This document shows, in pieces, positions 55,370-64,000 of a stretch of DNA of 64,000 nucleotides. The notes below the pieces were generated by a model that saw only the letters and a program-made list of their open reading frames with translations, made no database searches and was not told the DNA's origin. Numbering within the stretch: the stretch's first letter is position 1; each line of letters begins with the position of its first letter. Origin of the DNA: Candidatus Kaiserbacteria bacterium (GTDB lineage Bacteria; Patescibacteriota; Minisyncoccia; Phycocordibacterales; UBA2100); assembly GCA_016217925.1 (NCBI GenBank), contig JACRFK010000003.1:8364-72363 (forward strand), written 5' to 3'. Made by a program: the position numbers and the translations under genes.

Positions 55370-55624
55370 ATGGCTGGCAATCAAAACACGTTCCACCTCA
55401 CGATAGCGAGCGTCGGGGAGACGCGCTTTGACGGCGCCGCGGTCTCCGCGACGTTACCGGGTGCCTCGGGGGAGCTCACCATACTCGCGCACCATGAACC
55501 CATCGTGACAACGCTGAAGCCGGGAACCATTACTGTGCGTGAGGCGGATGCAGAGCCAAAACAATTCAAGATAGACAGCGGCATTCTCGAGTGCTCGGAA
55601 AGTCGCGCCATCGTTCTGTTGTAG
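55370..55624 (+). CDS. atpC: ATP synthase F1 subunit epsilon (N-terminal beta-sandwich only; C-terminal helical hairpin absent)
   Basis: 84 aa; ...FHLTIASVGETRFDGAAVSATLPGASGELTILAHHEPIVTTLKPG... Confidence 0.75.
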   Translation: MAGNQNTFHLTIASVGETRFDGAAVSATLPGASGELTILAHHEPIVTTLKPGTITVREADAEPKQFKIDSGILECSESRAIVLL

Positions 55625-55671
55625 ACTTGTTTTCAACAGTGAAGCGCCCTCAATGCTCGCGAGGCAGTACA

Positions 55672-57633
55672 ATGGACGTAATGCGTCACGCGCGTATTTT
55701 TTTGATGTTGTTTGTTGCAGCCGCGGTACTTACGCCTGCACCGGCGGTGCAGGCGGCGCTTGCAGTAAACGGCCAAAATATCTGTCCCACGGGCACAACC
55801 GGCGATCCGAGCGGTTCAAAAGAGTTTCCCGTCCCCACTGACACAAAAAAAATCGATGCGTATCTCAAACAGAAAGTGATGTGCCCAAATGCATGCTTCA
55901 ATATCAGAGTCTCGCTCTCGGCAAAAATATCAGAACGGTTGCTCACCATCAAGACGACCGCATCGAATGCTTGCGGAACTCCAAATCCGACCGCTGAAGA
56001 CGCAAAAAATAAGAATCGCGGGTGTTCGAAAGGGCAAACCCCGCCCACCATTTTCGTCCAGTCTCCGGCAATTTTCGGGGTCCTCTCGAAGCCGCGGTCC
56101 GAAGGGCCACGATCACGTTGCGATCCTGCGGTATCGCGGGTAATCGGAACTTTCGCACAAGGCGACCTTGAGCAGGGATTTAATGGGATTGCCAGTTTGC
56201 AAGCTGCCGCTACCGTGCAGGGTCCTGCAACGGTCGACTTGAGCATCCCTACTGACCGCAACCAGATAGCTATGGAGCTTGCCGCGGGCACGAATATATC
56301 GGTTGACGATGCGAAGGCAATAGTTGCGCGAGACCCTGAGGCCGCTATCAAAGCGATAAATGCTATTTCGACCGGAAGCGACGCTGAAATAAAGACGGCG
56401 GTAGCCGCAATAGGACTCAATCCTGATCTTACCGACAAAGCGGCACTTCAAGCAGTTGTTGCACAAAACAATGGACTGCCAGTGAACGACCCAAACGATA
56501 CTCTAGAACTATCCGCCCTCAGTACGTTTAGGCAGAGTCCAGACGAAGCCACCGGTCCAAATATTGCCGAGAGACTCGCGCCTATGTGCTATCAGCAGGG
56601 AATGGGCGGGTGCGGCAATGCGTGCAATGTACCGAATCCGAGCACGCTCACGTGCGCGGCCAACAATCCCGGCGCGCTCACATTTACGGCGTGGCAGACT
56701 CAGTATGGGGGCCGCCCGTGCGGGTTGGCCAACAACACCACGTGTTACGACACCATCGAGGGCGGCATCGCCGCGCAGGCGAATCTGCTCATGACAAGCC
56801 CCCGGTACTTCGGAACAGGCAACAACACGATATTGGGCGCGTTTTGCGGCGGGTACACTGCAAATCGTGACCAATGTGCTCCGTATGCAGCTTTCATATC
56901 CGCGCAGACAGGCATCCCGATTAACCAGACAATAGACCCCAACAACACAGAGCAGATCGCGGCCATCATGATGGCGTCGTCCCGTTTCGAGAATGGTCGC
57001 GGCGTTATTTACACACCCGAGCAACTCCAAAAAGGGCTGCAGGTGGCACTCGGTACGGATGTATTGCCTGAGGGCACGCCGGGCTACATCCCGAGAACTA
57101 TGTACGGGACGAACGGCGGCACGCAATTCGGTTCTGCGTTCAGCATGAGCTCGGCCGCTCCGCCCGCGGCCGCGCCGGTAGGATACGGAAGCCCATTCGC
57201 ACAAGGTTCTAATGTCCCGATTGCGCAAACACAAACACAATCGAGCGTACAGCAGACAGCACCGGTCCAGATCTCACAACAAATTCAGCGCGTGCAGGAC
57301 AGCATCCCGTCTTCATCGGTCGCAGAGCAATTGCAGCAAGCCTTGAGCGGCGCCTCTTCCACTCCCGAGAAATCGCCCATCGCTATCATCGTTCAGCCAA
57401 AAGAAGTGACGAAGGGAGAGCAGGTCACCGTTTCGTGGTCGTCGAAAGGAATGAGTACGGAAATACCGTGCGTCTTACGCATAGGCTCAGCCATCATCGC
57501 ACGCAAAAATCAGGGAGCGAGCGTCGTACAGACAAGCCCGCTCATGGCGACAGGTTCACTTGTCTTTACGCTCTCGTGCACCACCCCGTCGGGTACGCAG
57601 ATACAACGCAACGCGGCGGTGTTCGTCCGGTGA
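55672..57633 (+). CDS. Large secreted cysteine-rich protein with Gln/Ser-rich linker and C-terminal Ig-like region, hypothetical
   Basis: Signal peptide MDVMRHARIFLMLFVAAAVLTPAPAVQA; >20 Cys in clustered CxxC/CGNAC motifs; no identifiable family. Confidence 0.55.
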   Translation: MDVMRHARIFLMLFVAAAVLTPAPAVQAALAVNGQNICPTGTTGDPSGSKEFPVPTDTKKIDAYLKQKVMCPNACFNIRVSLSAKISERLLTIKTTASNACGTPNPTAEDAKNKNRGCSKGQTPPTIFVQSPAIFGVLSKPRSEGPRSRCDPAVSRVIGTFAQGDLEQGFNGIASLQAAATVQGPATVDLSIPTDRNQIAMELAAGTNISVDDAKAIVARDPEAAIKAINAISTGSDAEIKTAVAAIGLNPDLTDKAALQAVVAQNNGLPVNDPNDTLELSALSTFRQSPDEATGPNIAERLAPMCYQQGMGGCGNACNVPNPSTLTCAANNPGALTFTAWQTQYGGRPCGLANNTTCYDTIEGGIAAQANLLMTSPRYFGTGNNTILGAFCGGYTANRDQCAPYAAFISAQTGIPINQTIDPNNTEQIAAIMMASSRFENGRGVIYTPEQLQKGLQVALGTDVLPEGTPGYIPRTMYGTNGGTQFGSAFSMSSAAPPAAAPVGYGSPFAQGSNVPIAQTQTQSSVQQTAPVQISQQIQRVQDSIPSSSVAEQLQQALSGASSTPEKSPIAIIVQPKEVTKGEQVTVSWSSKGMSTEIPCVLRIGSAIIARKNQGASVVQTSPLMATGSLVFTLSCTTPSGTQIQRNAAVFVR

Positions 57634-60016: not shown

Positions 60017-61117
60017 ATGTCGCTGTCAATTGGTATTGTTGGGTTACCGAACGTCGGGAAATCGACGCTTTTTAATGCTCTTACAAAGAAGGGTGTGCCC
60101 GCGGAAAATTATCCTTTTTGTACCATTGACCCCTCGGTGGGTATCGTCGCCGTACCGGATTTCCGGCTTGATAAACTCGCGGAGATGTCGCATTCAAAGA
60201 AGAAGGTGTCGGCGGTCGTTGAGTTCGTTGATATCGCGGGCCTTGTAAAGGGGGCCTCGCAGGGCGAGGGGCTCGGCAATCAATTCCTCACGCATATCCG
60301 CGAGGTGGACGCGATAGCGGAGGTCGTACGCATGTTCGACGATGAGGATGTGCATCATGTCGCAGGACAAGTGGACCCGCTCTCTGATATCGAGACCATA
60401 GACCTGGAGCTCGTACTCGCCGACATGCAAACCGCGGAGAAGCGGCTTGAGCGCGTCGAGCGTGATTCCAAAGGCGGGGATAAAGAATTCGTGGCGGAGC
60501 GAGATGTGCTTAGGAAGATTGTGCCCGTATTGAAGCAAGGCCGTGCCGCGCGGACCGTGGGGCTTGATGTCAAAGAGCAGGTTGTCGCGAAAAGCCTCCA
60601 CTTGCTCACCATGAAGCCGGTCTTGTACATCCTCAATAGAAAAAGTGGCACGGTGAACGTGGATGCGGAAGGAGGGGATAGGTGGGCAGCCCTCAAACAG
60701 TTCCTCGATTCATCCGCTTCACAATATGTCGTTGTCGATGCGGGGGTGGAGAGCGACTTGTCGGACGTACACGATGATGAACGCGCGGATTTCCGCCGCG
60801 AGCTCGGCGTGCCGAACGACGGGCTCGATGACCTCATCAAAGCGGGATACCGCCTTCTCGACCTCATATCATTCTTTACAACGGGAGAAGACGAATCCCG
60901 CGCGTGGACGATACGGCGGGGCGGGGCGGCACCTGAGGCGGGAGCTGCGATACACACCGACTTCCGCGACAAGTTCATCCGCGCCGAAGTCATCCATTGG
61001 GACAAGCTGTTGGAAGTCGGCTCGTGGAGCAAGGCTCGCGATAAGGGAGTTCTTCGAACGGAAGGGAAAGAATATATTGTTCAAGATGGCGATGTAATGG
61101 AATTCTTGCATAGCTAA
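60017..61117 (+). CDS. ychF: Ribosome-binding ATPase YchF (Obg-like)
   Basis: ...IGIVGLPNVGKSTLFNALT... G1, ...DIAGLV... G3, C-terminal TGS domain. Confidence 0.9.
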   Translation: MSLSIGIVGLPNVGKSTLFNALTKKGVPAENYPFCTIDPSVGIVAVPDFRLDKLAEMSHSKKKVSAVVEFVDIAGLVKGASQGEGLGNQFLTHIREVDAIAEVVRMFDDEDVHHVAGQVDPLSDIETIDLELVLADMQTAEKRLERVERDSKGGDKEFVAERDVLRKIVPVLKQGRAARTVGLDVKEQVVAKSLHLLTMKPVLYILNRKSGTVNVDAEGGDRWAALKQFLDSSASQYVVVDAGVESDLSDVHDDERADFRRELGVPNDGLDDLIKAGYRLLDLISFFTTGEDESRAWTIRRGGAAPEAGAAIHTDFRDKFIRAEVIHWDKLLEVGSWSKARDKGVLRTEGKEYIVQDGDVMEFLHS

Positions 61118-61177
61118 CGTGATGTCATGCCCGCCCCGTAGGAGGCTGTGCTTTCCTGCGAGGGAATTTCTCCATAG

Positions 61178-62185
61178 TTGACATCCGCAGTCTGGCTTGT
61201 ACCATTTCACCATATGGATAAACCAAAGGTAACGCCCAAGGACTTCGTCCTCTGGGTAGGTGCGATGGCCTCGCTCTATGCGGGTGTCGTGGCTTTTATT
61301 ACGCTCGTGTTCGAGTACATTAATAAAGCATTTCCGAATCCAGTTACATCTTCTTACTACTACGGCGATCCGTATTCGAGCAACATCAGCTACGAGACAG
61401 CGGCGCTCATTGTGCTCACGCCGGTCTTCCTCATCCTCATGCGCTTCATCCGGCGCGATATCGCAGCCGACCCATCGCGCAATGATATCTGGGTCCGGCG
61501 CTGGGCGCTCTTCCTCACACTTTTCCTCGCGGGCGCAACCGTTGTCGTGGACCTCATCGTGCTACTCAACACGTACCTACAGGGTGAAGACCTCACCGTA
61601 GGTTTTTTGCTCAAGGTGCTGACCGTCCTTCTCGTCGCAGGCCTCGGCTTCATGCACTTCATCGCCGACCTGTGGGGGTATTGGGAACGTGAACAAGCGC
61701 GCGCACGGATGGTCAATTGGGGCGTCGGCCTGTTGGTCGTGGTCACCATTATCGCGGGATTCTTCATCGTTGGCACTCCGCAGCAGATACGCGCGCAAAA
61801 ACAAGATGCGATACGTGTGCAGGACCTGCAGAACGTCCAGTGGCAGATAGTCAATTACTGGCAACAGAAGGAAAAATTGCCTGCGACGCTTGCCGAACTC
61901 AACGACCCTATCGCCAATAACATCATCCCGGTCGACCCGCAGACCGATGAGGCGTACGAATACGCATCAACGGGCGCACGCTCGTTCAAGCTCTGTGCGA
62001 CGTTCGCGGGCGAGGGCGGTACCAACACTCTGCAAGGACGTTCTGTGCCAATACCCGCTGAGCCCACCTTGGTAACGGGCAAAGATGTTCAGGACAATTG
62101 GCAGCATGCTGCCGGAAAGGTCTGTTTCGACCGCACTATAGACCCACAACGATACCCCCCGTACTCCAAGCAAAAGTCCCTATAA
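61178..62185 (+). CDS. DUF5671-like membrane protein with C-terminal pseudopilin-like globular domain, hypothetical
   Basis: 4 TM, then ...DAIRVQDLQNVQWQIVNYWQQKEKLPATLAELNDP...PVDPQTDEAYEY... Alternative start at 61214 (MDKPK...). Confidence 0.55.
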   Translation: MTSAVWLVPFHHMDKPKVTPKDFVLWVGAMASLYAGVVAFITLVFEYINKAFPNPVTSSYYYGDPYSSNISYETAALIVLTPVFLILMRFIRRDIAADPSRNDIWVRRWALFLTLFLAGATVVVDLIVLLNTYLQGEDLTVGFLLKVLTVLLVAGLGFMHFIADLWGYWEREQARARMVNWGVGLLVVVTIIAGFFIVGTPQQIRAQKQDAIRVQDLQNVQWQIVNYWQQKEKLPATLAELNDPIANNIIPVDPQTDEAYEYASTGARSFKLCATFAGEGGTNTLQGRSVPIPAEPTLVTGKDVQDNWQHAAGKVCFDRTIDPQRYPPYSKQKSL

Positions 62186-62327: not shown

Positions 62328-64000
62328 ATGGGAGGTTACGACCACAAGAAAATCGAGAAAAAGTGGCAAAAGAAATGGGAGAAAGACGGCCTCTACAAGA
62401 CACCCGATACATCCAAAGGGAAAGATAATTTTCACCTCCTCGTCGAATTTCCGTATCCTTCGGGCAATCTCCATGTGGGGCACTGGTACGCATTTGCCGT
62501 GCCCGATATTTTGGCCAGGCACTTGCGCATGCAGGGGAAGAACGTTTTGTACCCGATAGGGTTTGATGCCTTCGGGCTTCCGGCTGAGAACGCGGCTATC
62601 AAGAACAAACTCAATCCGCGGAAGTGGACGCTCGGCAATATCGAGTACATGAAGAAGCAAATCCGCTCGATGGGCACCTCATTCGACTGGTCGCGCGAAG
62701 TCGTCACCTGCGACCCCAGCTACTACAAATGGACGCAGTGGCTTTTCCTCCAACTCTTTAAGGCGGGATTGGTCTACCGCAAAGAAACCGCCGTGAATTG
62801 GTGCCCCAAGGATAAGACCGTGCTTGCCAACGAGCAGGTGGTAGACGGCAAGTGTGAGCGGTGCGACAGCGAGGTCGTGCAGAAGCAGATGCTTCAGTGG
62901 AACATCAAAATTACCGACTATGCGGAGCGCCTCATAGGTGACCTCGATGCCCTCGATTGGCCGAAAGAGATAAAGGAATCGCAGAAGAATTGGATAGGCC
63001 GCTCCGAAGGCGCGGAGATAGATTTCCCGCTCACGGGTGCTGTCAAAGACGACTCTCGTTTCCTTTTGTTGCACGGTAGAGAAAGCTCATCAGAAGGGGA
63101 GTACCAGCCGTGGCTCAAAGCCGAACTTGAAAAGCGCGGTTATGAAGTTGAGGTCGTTGATATGCCAAATCCCAGTGAGCCCGATGACGAGGAACAGGCA
63201 GATCATGTAGAGAAACACTGCACACTCGACGAGCGAACGGTCGTCGTCGGGCATTCATTTGGCGGAGTCGTCGCGATGCGCCTCTTGGAGCGAGGAAATA
63301 AAGTCAGGCGCGTTGTGTTCGTCGCGACGGCGGTTTCCGGGAAGTTCTTGGACGGGAAGATCCGCAAGAGCGTTACCAGAGCATGTAAGAAAGGTTTTGA
63401 TTTTGAGAAAATAAAAAAACAGGCGCGTACCTTTATGGTCGTCCCGGACCTCACCGACAAGATAATCCCGATATCCGACGCCGAAGCGTTAGCAAAAAAT
63501 CTAAACGCGATGTATGTGCCCGGCAAGGGGAATTCGCCGCATTTTACCGGCGAGAAAGAGCCGGATGTATTGATGATGTGCGCGCCGACCATTCGAGTAT
63601 TCACAACCCGTGCCGACACGCTCTTTGGCGGTACCTACCTCGTGCTTGCCCCGGAGCATCCTTGGGTGACGCTCGCTCTCGATAACAAACACAATGTCCT
63701 GAAGAATAAGGAAGAAGTGCTGACCTATGTTGGGAAGGCGAAAAAGAAAACGGAAATCGAGCGGCAGGCAGTCGAAAAAGAAAAGACGGGAGTCGAATTG
63801 AAGGGTGTGAAGGCAATCAATCCGGCTACTGGCCGTGAGATTCCGGTGTGGGTGGCAGACTTTGTACTCGGCCACTATGGCACAGGAGCGGTGTTTGCCG
63901 ATGCGCATGACGAACGCGATTTCGCTTTTGCGAAGAAATACGGAATACCGCTCAAGGAAACACTGGAGCCGCTTGTCGTGCGCACATCGGGAGCGGATAC
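62328..64000 (+). CDS. leuS: Leucine--tRNA ligase, 5' portion (continues past the window), carrying an inserted ~190-aa alpha/beta-hydrolase-like domain
   Basis: ...FPYPSGNLHVGHW... HIGH motif, ...NWIGRSEGAEIDFPL..., then the insertion (...FLLLHGRESSSEGEYQPWLK...VVVGHSFGGVVAMRLL...VVFVATA...), then ...VFTTRADTLFGGTYLVLAPEHP... (start of CP1/editing). Reading frame verified codon by codon. Confidence 0.85.
   Translation, partial: MGGYDHKKIEKKWQKKWEKDGLYKTPDTSKGKDNFHLLVEFPYPSGNLHVGHWYAFAVPDILARHLRMQGKNVLYPIGFDAFGLPAENAAIKNKLNPRKWTLGNIEYMKKQIRSMGTSFDWSREVVTCDPSYYKWTQWLFLQLFKAGLVYRKETAVNWCPKDKTVLANEQVVDGKCERCDSEVVQKQMLQWNIKITDYAERLIGDLDALDWPKEIKESQKNWIGRSEGAEIDFPLTGAVKDDSRFLLLHGRESSSEGEYQPWLKAELEKRGYEVEVVDMPNPSEPDDEEQADHVEKHCTLDERTVVVGHSFGGVVAMRLLERGNKVRRVVFVATAVSGKFLDGKIRKSVTRACKKGFDFEKIKKQARTFMVVPDLTDKIIPISDAEALAKNLNAMYVPGKGNSPHFTGEKEPDVLMMCAPTIRVFTTRADTLFGGTYLVLAPEHPWVTLALDNKHNVLKNKEEVLTYVGKAKKKTEIERQAVEKEKTGVELKGVKAINPATGREIPVWVADFVLGHYGTGAVFADAHDERDFAFAKKYGIPLKETLEPLVVRTSGAD

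What the first reader, a model, noticed from the sequence alone, without database searches (positions are those of the whole stretch)
63040..63610. LeuS carries an inserted ~190-aa alpha/beta-hydrolase (GxSxG) domain at the catalytic-core/CP1 junction
In LeuS as I know it (e.g. E. coli ...[33 protein letters not shown]...), only about 10 residues separate the NWIGRSEG block from the TTRPDT motif that opens the CP1 editing domain. Here a continuous, frame-verified ~190-residue segment lies between ...EIDFPLTG and IRVFTTRADTLFG.... The segment (...RFLLLHGRESSSEGEYQPWLKAELEKRGYEVEVVDMPNP...ERTVVVGHSFGGVVAMRLLERGNKVRRVVFVATA...VVPDLTDKIIPISDAEALAKNL...) has the hallmarks of a small serine hydrolase of the YdeN/RBBP9 (Ser_hydrolase) type: a hydrophobic strand ending in HG, a GHSFGG nucleophile elbow, and later Asp/His candidates. 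It is not an intein: there is no Cys/Ser at the N-junction, no His-Asn at the C-junction and no splicing blocks. An esterase fold grafted next to the hydrolytic editing site of an aminoacyl-tRNA synthetase could supply an additional deacylase activity on mischarged tRNA-Leu; alternatively it is a structural module. I do not recall this insertion being described.
Basis: partly seen in the sequence, partly recalled or inferred. Interest (0 to 1): 0.82.

Follow-up and report, generated by a model that had tools for sequence, protein, structure and literature searches.

The report
Serine hydrolase domain nested inside LeuRS
The leucyl-tRNA synthetase of this uncultured (CPR/Patescibacteria) bacterium really does carry a complete serine-hydrolase enzyme, apparently still active, spliced into a hairpin loop right beside its proofreading site; many related bacteria share this architecture, I found no paper describing it, and what it does has not been tested.

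Summary
One continuous ORF (start 62328, running off the window end) encodes LeuRS. A 184-aa segment (nt 63039-63590, aa 238-421) replaces the 4-residue turn of a beta-hairpin that ends 4 residues before the TTRxDT editing motif.

- **Fold:** the segment passes Pfam Ser_hydrolase (PF06821). It folds with pLDDT 96.8 onto RBBP9 and YdeN (TM 0.82-0.84). It keeps HG, GHS310FG, D377 and H405.
- **Not an artefact:** it is not an intein, a frameshift or a recent transfer.
- **Distribution:** the same nested domain sits at the same site in at least 23 LeuRS genes from species-representative genomes of many Patescibacteria lineages, and in about 39 metagenome cluster representatives. The triad is almost always intact, and dN/dS is about 0.12.
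- **Patchiness:** LeuRS up to 73% identical lack it.
- **Relatives with more:** many also carry a NUDIX domain inside CP1, and this gene appears to enter one at the window edge. The same domain lineage is nested at a second LeuRS site and in ValRS, AlaRS, TsaD, SecA and Der.

The only characterised family member, RBBP9, hydrolyses bonds to hydrophobic amino acids with a free alpha-amine. An extra aminoacyl-bond hydrolase beside the intact CP1 editing site is therefore the best guess (confidence about 0.4). An autonomous house-cleaning enzyme riding on LeuRS is nearly as likely. I rate it a new variant of a known kind.

The parts
62328..64000 (+). leuS coding sequence (5' part, 557 codons; runs off the window end)
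   Evidence: Continuous frame. TIGR00396 leuS_bact scores 494.5 bits for this truncated piece. Full-length relatives L004 and L018 score 921 and 1003 bits against a cut-off of 548. Thermus LeuRS 1h3n matches at E 2.6e-123.
62472..62483 (+). HIGH signature (H49-V-G-H52) of the class I synthetic site
   Evidence: Read from the translation. The motif was also found in relatives.
63012..63038 (+). Ascending strand of the host beta-hairpin (aa 229-237, AEIDFPLTG)
   Evidence: Strand E229-237 in the AlphaFold model of the 557-aa fragment. Aligns to Thermus 230-238.
63039..63590 (+). Nested Ser_hydrolase (YdeN/RBBP9-type alpha/beta hydrolase) domain, aa 238-421, 184 aa
   Evidence: PF06821 at 42.9-45.9 bits. 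AlphaFold pLDDT 96.8. Foldseek TM 0.84 to RBBP9 and 0.82 to YdeN. dN/dS 0.12 against L003. GC 52.4%, like the flanks.
63072..63077 (+). H249-G250, the 'HG' motif at the end of strand 1 (oxyanion-hole region)
   Evidence: H is present in 23 of 24 LeuRS-embedded copies and in 56 of 56 free-standing copies. G is invariant in A3. The oxyanion-hole role is inferred from the fold family.
63249..63263 (+). Nucleophile elbow G308-H-S310-F-G312 (Ser310 at 63255-63257)
   Evidence: Ser is present in 24 of 24 genome LeuRS-embedded copies and in every long metagenome representative whose domain covers that column. It aligns with Ser75 of RBBP9.
63456..63458 (+). Asp377, acid of the predicted triad
   Evidence: The column holds D in 19 and E in 4 of 24 embedded copies. 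It aligns with the SDNDxxVP motif of free-standing family members.
63540..63542 (+). His405, base of the predicted triad
   Evidence: His is present in 24 of 24 embedded copies and is invariant in A3.
63591..63620 (+). Descending hairpin strand plus the threonine-rich CP1 editing motif (I422-RVF-T426-T427-R-A-D-T431)
   Evidence: Strand E421-426. Aligns to Thermus IPVFTTRPDT 243-252. PF13603 LeuRS editing domain scores 151 bits.
63906..63920 (+). CP1 editing-site H527-D-E-R-D531 motif (conserved aspartates)
   Evidence: Aligns to Thermus AHDQRD. The motif was present in every insert-bearing LeuRS examined.
63951..64000 (+). Last residues before the window end (KETLEPLVVRTSGAD). They align with the lead-in to a NUDIX domain nested in CP1 of the closest relatives.
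   Evidence: L003, L004 and L005 continue from the same sequence (KETVEPLITRTSGLDAV...) into a NUDIX box, GGIEx7REIREETGY. PF00293 is found in L004 at aa 593-685.

Best explanation
**Shown.** The housekeeping LeuRS of this Kaiserbacteria-like CPR bacterium carries a complete, independently folding YdeN/RBBP9-family serine hydrolase domain. It is nested in the tip of the beta-hairpin that leads into the CP1 editing domain. The linkers are about 6 and 4 residues, and the C-junction lies 4 residues before the TTRxDT editing motif. The Ser310-Asp377-His405 triad and the HG motif are intact and under purifying selection. The arrangement is inherited across many Patescibacteria lineages.

**Inferred.** The domain is an active hydrolase whose chemistry resembles that of RBBP9. 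That means attack by the serine on the carbonyl of a hydrophobic alpha-amino acid that has a free amine, formation of an aminoacyl-enzyme, and release of the amino acid.

**Most likely role (inferred, not shown).** Tethered beside the still-intact CP1 site, it would give LeuRS an additional hydrolytic clearance site for aminoacyl species. Candidates are mis-acylated tRNA-Leu leaving the enzyme, or aminoacyl-adenylate or ester by-products. It probably acts together with the NUDIX domain that most relatives carry in CP1.
For: **Identity and fold:**

**Position:**

**Catalytic residues.** In LeuRS-embedded copies that are only 30-40% identical, Ser is conserved in 24/24, the acid in 23/24 and His in 24/24. 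They are also conserved in nearly all of 61 long metagenome representatives.

**Selection.** dN/dS is 0.12. The insert's divergence equals that of CP1 (77% against 76% identity to L003).

[quoted passage not shown] RBBP9 is also reported as a valacyclovir-activating enzyme, valacyclovir being a valyl ester by general knowledge. I saw only the title of that paper (Shenoy 2020), in the reference list of PMC7730578.

**Link to editing synthetases.**
- 44 of the 61 long proteins carrying the domain are class I synthetases (39 LeuRS, 3-4 ValRS), and one is AlaRS.
- The domain has entered LeuRS at two different sites, both at the borders of CP1.
- Three types of editing synthetase carry it.

**Clade-specific features.**
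- Embedded copies share a lid motif (F-x-D...RPF...FDFxKIKK) that is absent from most free-standing copies.
- The lid is strongly basic (+7 to +8) in the clade of this window.
Against: - No activity was measured, and no coordinates were available to see whether Ser310 faces the CP1 pocket or the path of the CCA end.
- CP1's own editing motifs are intact in all insert-bearing LeuRS, so a second site is not obviously needed.
- LeuRS up to 73% identical lack the insert. Insert-bearing and insert-less LeuRS are interspersed in a LeuRS-core tree. The module is therefore dispensable for LeuRS function.
- The same nested lineage also sits in SecA, TsaD and Der, and a related copy sits in UvrB. None of these handle aminoacyl esters.
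- Free-standing copies are common in CPR and DPANN genomes.
- The residue that aligns with RBBP9's amine anchor, Glu108, is not conserved.
Confidence: 0.4

Rival explanations
1. An autonomous house-cleaning enzyme riding on LeuRS. The hydrolase, like the NUDIX domain, does a general cellular job unrelated to leucylation, such as metabolite sanitation or an esterase or peptidase activity. It has simply been nested into a permissive surface loop of an abundant essential protein in these streamlined genomes. LeuRS is only its carrier.
For: - The same domain lineage is nested in SecA, TsaD, Der, AlaRS and ValRS. Related copies are nested in UvrB, or fused end-to-end to adenylate kinase, Ham1/ITPase, NUDIX, glyoxalase, Peptidase_S51 and LspA. 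Several of these partners are classic house-cleaning enzymes.
- NUDIX is the commonest neighbour of free-standing copies (5 of 93 neighbours). NUDIX is also co-nested in 18 of the 61 long proteins.
- Presence in LeuRS is patchy among close relatives.
- No genome among the 80 loci showed both an embedded and a free-standing copy. There is no second copy in this 64-kb window.
- CP1 is intact.
Against: - LeuRS has been hit repeatedly: the hydrolase at two sites and NUDIX at three. Every other host appears once. That is hard to explain by permissiveness alone.
- At least four independent captures are in editing-type synthetases, at the borders of the editing domains.
- The embedded clade has its own conserved lid motif.
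- The complementary-distribution argument rests on a pattern-limited scan of which only the best 80 of 229 hits were kept.
Confidence: 0.35
2. An amino-acid supply module. The domain is an RBBP9-like aminopeptidase that clips N-terminal hydrophobic residues (Leu; Val in ValRS) from scavenged peptides and hands them to the synthetase. These organisms cannot make amino acids.
For: - RBBP9 is an aminopeptidase for hydrophobic or aromatic N-terminal residues, and Leu/Ile adducts were trapped on it (PMC8866121).
- Free-standing copies are concentrated in CPR and DPANN genomes, which by general knowledge are largely auxotrophic.
- One fusion is to Peptidase_S51.
Against: - The insert sits next to the editing domain, not next to the synthetic-site entrance.
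- Free amino acid would diffuse away, so there is no obvious channelling.
- This idea explains neither the NUDIX partnership nor the SecA, TsaD and Der hosts.
Confidence: 0.1
3. A structural or regulatory module with no catalysis: a degenerate hydrolase fold used only as a spacer, docking surface or sensor.
For: Insertions in synthetases often serve non-catalytic roles (general knowledge). In a few representatives the residue before the nucleophile has changed (GISFG, GQSFG, GRSLG, GYSLG).
Against: The nucleophile Ser and the His are retained in essentially every copy across 30-40% sequence identity, and the acid in about 95%. That pattern is not expected for a pseudo-enzyme.
Confidence: 0.05
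4. An artefact or self-removing element: a frameshifted separate gene, a chimeric assembly, or an intein-like element that is excised from the mature protein.
For: One related contig (L001) is full of frameshifts, so gene callers there split LeuRS and called the hydrolase as a separate 253-aa protein. Elements nested in essential proteins (SecA, UvrB, synthetases) recall the host range of inteins.
Against: - The frame is continuous here and in 23 independent genome assemblies.
- No intein junction residues or Hint domain are present.
- The composition matches the flanks.
- AlphaFold places the domain between two paired host strands.
Confidence: 0.02

Closest known systems
RBBP9 (human serine hydrolase; PDB 2qs9, 7oex, 9fcr), Pfam PF06821
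   Same: Same family and fold: profile E 9e-20 and TM 0.84. It is a lid-less alpha/beta hydrolase of about 185 aa with a Ser-Asp-His triad. Its documented chemistry is hydrolysis of bonds to hydrophobic amino acids that need a free alpha-amine (PMC8866121).
   Different: RBBP9 is a free-standing eukaryotic protein, only about 22% identical. Its amine-anchoring Glu108 is not conserved here. The embedded clade has its own lid motif. No link between RBBP9 and tRNA is known.
YdeN of Bacillus subtilis (PDB 1uxo), the bacterial PF06821 prototype
   Same: The best sequence match among solved structures (9.5e-25), with TM 0.82. It has the same size and the same triad positions.
   Different: It is free-standing and, to my knowledge, its function is unknown. 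It is not associated with a synthetase.
The CP1 editing domain of bacterial LeuRS (PF13603; Thermus 1h3n/2byt, E. coli 4aq7)
   Same: It is also a hydrolytic domain nested in the Rossmann fold of LeuRS, and it deacylates mis-charged tRNA-Leu. The new domain is nested in CP1's own entry hairpin.
   Different: The fold and chemistry are entirely different. CP1 has no serine nucleophile or acyl-enzyme. CP1 is universal in bacterial LeuRS with rare exceptions, whereas this insert is patchy and confined to Patescibacteria in the data seen here.
Synthetases carrying an extra catalytic domain, e.g. NCBIfam NF040702 'isoleucine--tRNA ligase, N-acetyltransferase domain-containing'
   Same: A bacterial class Ia synthetase with an additional enzyme domain, recognised as a curated exception family. 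The model appears, but only through its IleRS part.
   Different: The added domain is different (GNAT, not alpha/beta hydrolase) and so is the host. No curated NCBIfam family exists for the LeuRS-hydrolase architecture. Full-length relatives are simply called leuS_bact.
Inteins
   Same: Elements of 150-200 aa or more, nested in-frame in conserved regions of essential proteins. In CPR the hosts of this domain include SecA, UvrB and synthetases.
   Different: No splicing junction residues and no Hint fold are present. This domain is a conventional enzyme fold that presumably stays in the mature protein.

Membership tests
Pfam PF06821 Ser_hydrolase (YdeN/RBBP9) | Scores above the curated Pfam gathering threshold | tested here: met
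   42.9 bits in the 557-aa fragment and 45.9 bits for the segment alone, against a cut-off of 22. 51 of the 61 long relatives also match.
Pfam PF06821 Ser_hydrolase (YdeN/RBBP9) | Compact, lid-less alpha/beta-hydrolase fold of about 190 aa | tested here: met
   AlphaFold model with pLDDT 96.8 and pTM 0.93. The top PDB matches are RBBP9 at TM 0.84 and YdeN at TM 0.82. The next-best hydrolases drop to TM 0.73 or lower.
Pfam PF06821 Ser_hydrolase (YdeN/RBBP9) | Ser-Asp-His triad with Ser in a GxSxG elbow | tested here: met
   GHS310FG, D377 and H405 align with the family's catalytic columns. They are conserved in embedded copies.
Pfam PF06821 Ser_hydrolase (YdeN/RBBP9) | Hydrolase activity, and its substrate | not testable with these tools
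   Needs an enzyme assay or an activity-based probe.
Bacterial leucine--tRNA ligase (TIGR00396 leuS_bact) | Scores above the curated equivalog cut-off | tested here: inconclusive
   The window fragment scores 494.5 against a cut-off of 548.4 because the gene is cut by the window end. The full-length relatives L004 (about 79% identical over the region the window covers) and L018 score 921 and 1003.
Bacterial leucine--tRNA ligase (TIGR00396 leuS_bact) | HIGH and KMSKS class I signatures | tested here: inconclusive
   HVGH is present at aa 49-52. KMSKS lies beyond the window. It is present in L004 and L006.
Bacterial leucine--tRNA ligase (TIGR00396 leuS_bact) | CP1 editing domain with the threonine-rich motif and conserved aspartates | tested here: met
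   PF13603 at 151 bits. TTRADT at 426-431 and HDERD at 527-531 align to the Thermus motifs.
Intein | Cys/Ser/Thr as the first residue; His-Asn at the C-terminus followed by Cys/Ser/Thr; Hint fold | tested here: not met
   The first residue is Ala238. The C-junction is APT|I. There is no Hint or intein Pfam hit even at E<=1.
Known free-standing or appended aminoacyl-tRNA deacylases (YbaK/ProX, AlaX, Dtd) | Sequence or fold membership in those families | tested here: not met
   Pfam and NCBIfam scans of the segment return only alpha/beta-hydrolase families. The fold search returns only alpha/beta hydrolases. If this domain deacylates tRNA, it does so with a fold not used by any known editing factor.

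The most novel reading that the evidence does not exclude
The RBBP9-like domain, together with the co-nested NUDIX domain, is a previously unrecognised alpha/beta-hydrolase-based proofreading or clearance site on editing synthetases of Patescibacteria. It would form a covalent aminoacyl-serine intermediate, chemistry that no known synthetase editing domain uses. It belongs to a domain lineage specialised for being nested, which has spread from LeuRS into ValRS, AlaRS, TsaD, SecA and Der.
Probability: 0.2. Interest if true: 0.85.

Novelty: new variant of a known kind. Interest (0 to 1): 0.62.

Why it matters
LeuRS and its CP1 editing domain are among the best-studied proofreading systems. Bacterial synthetases are generally thought to lack extra catalytic modules.

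Here a large bacterial radiation has kept a second, and usually a third (NUDIX), apparently active hydrolase nested in the same polypeptide, directly beside the editing site.

- If the hydrolase acts on aminoacyl species, it would be a new kind of editing chemistry and a new role for the poorly understood YdeN/RBBP9 family.
- If it is an autonomous enzyme, it is a striking case of essential proteins serving as carriers for nested housekeeping enzymes in streamlined genomes.

Either way the finding has practical consequences. Annotation pipelines label some fragments of these LeuRS genes 'alpha/beta fold hydrolase' (P0287, P0099). Marker-gene alignments of LeuRS from CPR genomes also contain large unrelated insertions.

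Tried and rejected
**Hypotheses tested and rejected**
- **Frameshift or separate gene.** Rejected: the frame is continuous here and in 23 genomes. Only the error-rich contig L001 splits the gene.
- **Intein.** Rejected on junction residues and the absence of a Hint domain.
- **The hydrolase replaces a degenerate CP1.** Rejected: TTRxDT and HDxRD are intact in every insert-bearing LeuRS examined.
- **Recent horizontal acquisition.** Not supported. The insert has 52.4% GC against 53% in the flanks, diverges like CP1, and is shared across classes.

**Tests that were inconclusive or weak**
- **RNA-binding signature.** The lid net charge is +7 to +8 in this clade. Across all embedded copies it is only +2.5±3.0, against 0.0±2.5 in free-standing copies. 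Suggestive only.
- **Gene neighbourhood of free-standing copies.** Only a weak signal: NUDIX in 5 of 93 neighbours and class II synthetases in 2 of 93.
- **Identity of the NUDIX domain.** The closest solved structures are an uncharacterised MutT/nudix protein and B. subtilis RppH, at E 1e-4 to 5e-3. Too weak to use.

- The search for homologous proteins listed no protein longer than about 650 aa, so full-length LeuRS never appeared there. Full-length proteins came from the genome scan and from the representative search instead.
- The afdb50 fold library was unavailable.
- No model coordinates are returned, so I could not measure the distance or orientation between Ser310 and the CP1 pocket.
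- One literature search was wasted on the surname 'Ydenberg'.
- All trees are neighbour-joining on BLOSUM distances. They are indicative only.
Full report
**1. The observation**

The + strand from ATG 62328 to the window end translates without a stop for 557 codons. The ORF listing omits it only because it runs off the end.

Pfam finds the class I synthetase core at aa 12-223, the LeuRS editing domain at aa 421-548 and, between them, Ser_hydrolase PF06821 at aa 246-398 (42.9 bits, cut-off 22). NCBIfam names the protein leuS_bact.

Against Thermus thermophilus LeuRS (1h3n/2v0c), residues 4-237 align to 4-238 and residues 422-547 align to 243-363. Residues 238-421 (nt 63039-63590, 184 aa) therefore replace a 4-residue turn. 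Insert-less close relatives have a turn of about 8-10 residues there.

The only corrections are that the normal spacing is about 22-28 residues from W of WIGRS to F of FTTR, and that the site is a hairpin tip at the entrance of CP1.

**2. What the segment is**

- A profile of 25 embedded copies hits YdeN (1uxo) at 9.5e-25 and RBBP9 at 9e-20. Everything else scores 5e-6 or worse.
- AlphaFold, using 122 homologues, gives pLDDT 96.8 and pTM 0.93.
- Foldseek puts RBBP9 (2qs9, 7oex, 9fcr) and YdeN first, at TM 0.82-0.84 and rmsd 2.3-2.5 Å. Other alpha/beta hydrolases follow at TM 0.73 or lower.
- H249-G250, G308-H-S310-F-G312, D377 and H405 occupy the family's catalytic columns.
- In a model of the whole 557-aa fragment (pLDDT 87.4), the domain keeps pLDDT 94-98. 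It sits between host strands 229-237 and 421-426, with linkers of about 6 and 4 residues.
- The first inserted residue is Ala and the C-junction is APT|I, so it is not an intein.
- The GC content equals that of the flanks.

**3. It is conserved, not a curiosity of this genome**

*Genome scan.* A scan of one genome per species, using an alignment of the insert, returned 80 loci. In 23 of them the hydrolase lies inside a LeuRS ORF of 870-1330 aa, at exactly the same site. An incomplete locus, L013, brings the count to 24. The genomes are labelled Kaiserbacteria (78% identity), Parcubacteria, Doudnabacteria, Saccharibacteria, Taylorbacteria, Paceibacterota, Spechtbacterales, Levyibacteriota and Vogelbacteria.

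*This window.* It shares gene order (ychF, a DUF5671 membrane protein, leuS) with L013, L003, L004 and L005 at 74-85% nucleotide identity. It therefore comes from a Kaiserbacteria-like CPR bacterium.

*Metagenome representatives.* An index-free search of 1.84 billion cluster representatives found 1226 relatives of the insert at E<=1e-3. Of the best 150, 61 are long proteins. Among those 61, 44 are class I synthetases, 39 have the LeuRS editing domain and 18 also have NUDIX.

*Catalytic residues and selection.* Among the 24 LeuRS-embedded genome copies (window included), which are only 30-40% identical to one another, Ser and His are invariant and the acid is D or E in 23 of 24. The same holds for nearly all 61 long representatives. 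Against L003, dN/dS is 0.12 for the insert and 0.02 for the catalytic core. The insert and CP1 have diverged equally, at 77% and 76% identity. Full-length relatives pass the LeuRS equivalog model and have HIGH and KMSKS. This is therefore the working LeuRS.

**4. Distribution and history**

The insert is patchy. The nearest LeuRS lacking it are 73%, 69% and 66% identical (P0275, P0280, P0281). In a neighbour-joining tree of the LeuRS core, insert-bearing enzymes form several clusters interspersed with insert-less ones.

Trees of the hydrolase domain show a different pattern. All internally nested copies form one clade, separate from free-standing genes. That clade includes copies at LeuRS site A and at a second LeuRS site about 20 residues after RDWxxSRQR, plus copies in ValRS, AlaRS, TsaD, SecA and Der. 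One free-standing gene (L002, 52-55% identical, next to an ORF that resembles a VanW-family protein, not checked against Pfam) is nested inside that clade. Terminal fusions (Adk, Ham1, NUDIX, glyoxalase, Peptidase_S51, LspA) and the UvrB copy group with free-standing genes.

The simplest reading is one old capture by LeuRS, followed by many losses or allele exchanges and secondary spread to other hosts. These trees are crude and carry no support values.

**5. The NUDIX companion**

In L004, L006, L010 and L016 a NUDIX domain with an intact Nudix box is nested in CP1 after the HDxRD motif. L015 and L011 have one in the catalytic core, and P0222 has one elsewhere in CP1.

The last 15 residues of the window (KETLEPLVVRTSGAD) align with the lead-in to that NUDIX domain in L003, L004 and L005. 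This gene almost certainly has it just beyond the window.

NUDIX is also fused directly to the hydrolase (P0250, P0211). It is the most frequent neighbour of free-standing copies (5 of 93). The two hydrolases are therefore repeatedly associated, and no explanation so far fully accounts for this.

**6. How it most likely works**

*Shown:* the fold, the position, the intact triad, the purifying selection and the intact CP1 motifs.

*From the literature:* RBBP9, the only characterised member of the family, forms acyl-enzyme adducts with Leu/Ile, Met, Phe, Tyr and Trp in cells. [quoted passage not shown] It is also reported to activate valacyclovir, a valyl ester. I saw only the title of that paper (Shenoy 2020), in the reference list of PMC7730578.

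*Inferred:* the nested domain hydrolyses aminoacyl bonds. Because it is tethered 4 residues from the threonine-rich editing motif, it could act on aminoacyl-tRNA-Leu or on released aminoacyl-adenylate as an additional clearance site.

*In favour of a link with synthetases:*
- The hydrolase has been captured repeatedly, at two LeuRS sites bordering CP1 and in ValRS and AlaRS.
- The embedded clade has its own lid motif.
- The lid is basic in this clade.

*Against:*
- CP1 is intact.
- The insert is dispensable in close relatives.
- Some hosts have nothing to do with aminoacyl chemistry (SecA, Der, UvrB).
- Free-standing copies are abundant.

I therefore give the editing-like reading 0.4, the 'autonomous house-cleaning enzyme carried by LeuRS' reading 0.35, and an aminopeptidase supply role 0.1. 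The remaining 0.15 goes to a purely structural role (0.05), an artefact or self-excising element (0.02) and explanations not considered here.

**7. Comparison with what is known, and novelty**

The domain is a member of PF06821 by score, fold and triad. The host is a member of bacterial LeuRS. The combination has no curated family. I found no description of it in five full-text searches (one search was uninformative). Those searches do not cover most subscription journals.

Domain databases will show the architecture automatically. Some fragments are mis-named 'alpha/beta fold hydrolase' or 'predicted alpha/beta-fold hydrolase' (P0287, P0099).

I rate it a new variant of a known kind: a real, conserved and unexplained elaboration of a classic enzyme. 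Interest is 0.62.

Noticed in passing
window 63951-64000; L003, L004, L005 (aa ~545-700 of their LeuRS): The LeuRS tail at the window edge aligns with the lead-in to a NUDIX domain (intact Nudix box) nested inside the CP1 editing domain of the closest relatives. This gene very probably carries a second nested hydrolase just beyond the window.
   Followed up: partly
P0140, P0168, P0170, P0222, P0166, P0187 (metagenome LeuRS): In these LeuRS the hairpin site is empty. The same hydrolase domain sits at a second site about 20 residues after the RDWxxSRQR motif, where the chain returns from CP1 to the catalytic core.
   Followed up: partly
L022 and P0194/P0202/P0221 (ValRS); P0195 (AlaRS); P0180 (TsaD); P0157 (SecA); P0186 (Der GTPase); P0183 (UvrB): The same hydrolase domain is nested internally in other essential proteins of CPR bacteria. 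In a neighbour-joining tree all of these copies except the UvrB one fall inside the LeuRS-embedded clade, as if the nested lineage had spread from LeuRS.
   Followed up: partly
P0182 (Adk), P0199 (Ham1/ITPase), P0250 and P0211 (NUDIX), P0229 (glyoxalase), P0239 (Peptidase_S51), P0245 (LspA): There are end-to-end fusions of free-standing-type copies to nucleotide-metabolism, house-cleaning and peptidase enzymes. NUDIX is also the commonest gene neighbour of free-standing copies (5 of 93).
   Followed up: partly
L001 605-5120 (ENA ERZ25039538 contig_36148): A high-GC contig riddled with frameshifts. Its LeuRS appears to carry two tandem Ser_hydrolase domains at the hairpin site, plus NUDIX pieces in CP1. 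Gene callers split it into many fragments. P0131 is another tandem pair.
   Followed up: no
L015 (aa 273-372) and L011 (Nudix box at aa ~271): These LeuRS have an additional NUDIX domain in the catalytic core upstream of WIGRS. L015 reaches 1332 aa with three nested hydrolase domains.
   Followed up: no
L002 372-827: A free-standing gene 52-55% identical to the window's insert, following an ORF that resembles a VanW-family protein (not checked against Pfam). It branches inside the LeuRS-embedded clade next to the Doudnabacteria copy. This may be a secondary release of the nested domain.
   Followed up: no
L007 and L008, compared: The host and insert trees disagree. L008's LeuRS core groups with the Kaiserbacteria clade while its insert groups with L016, L011 and L015. 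L007 shows the reverse. This may reflect exchange of the insert between leuS alleles, or noise in the neighbour-joining method.
   Followed up: no
L012, L019, L027 (record titles): Bins labelled 'Pacearchaeota archaeon' and 'uncultured Gammaproteobacteria' carry bacterial CPR-type LeuRS with the insert. They are probably mis-binned or mislabelled.
   Followed up: no
P0287, P0099: Public annotations name fragments of these LeuRS genes 'alpha/beta fold hydrolase, partial' or 'predicted alpha/beta-fold hydrolase'. The nested domain misleads automatic naming.
   Followed up: no
window 55591-57633 (+): A 680-aa ORF with no Pfam family at E<=1e-5.
   Followed up: no
window 60017-62185: ychF (60017-61117) and a DUF5671 membrane protein (61178-62185) lie immediately upstream of leuS. 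This order is conserved in L003, L004, L005 and L013. The rest of the window sampled is ordinary CPR gene content: PPDK, two PBPs, ATP synthase alpha and beta, GMP synthase, and a class II synthetase.
   Followed up: partly
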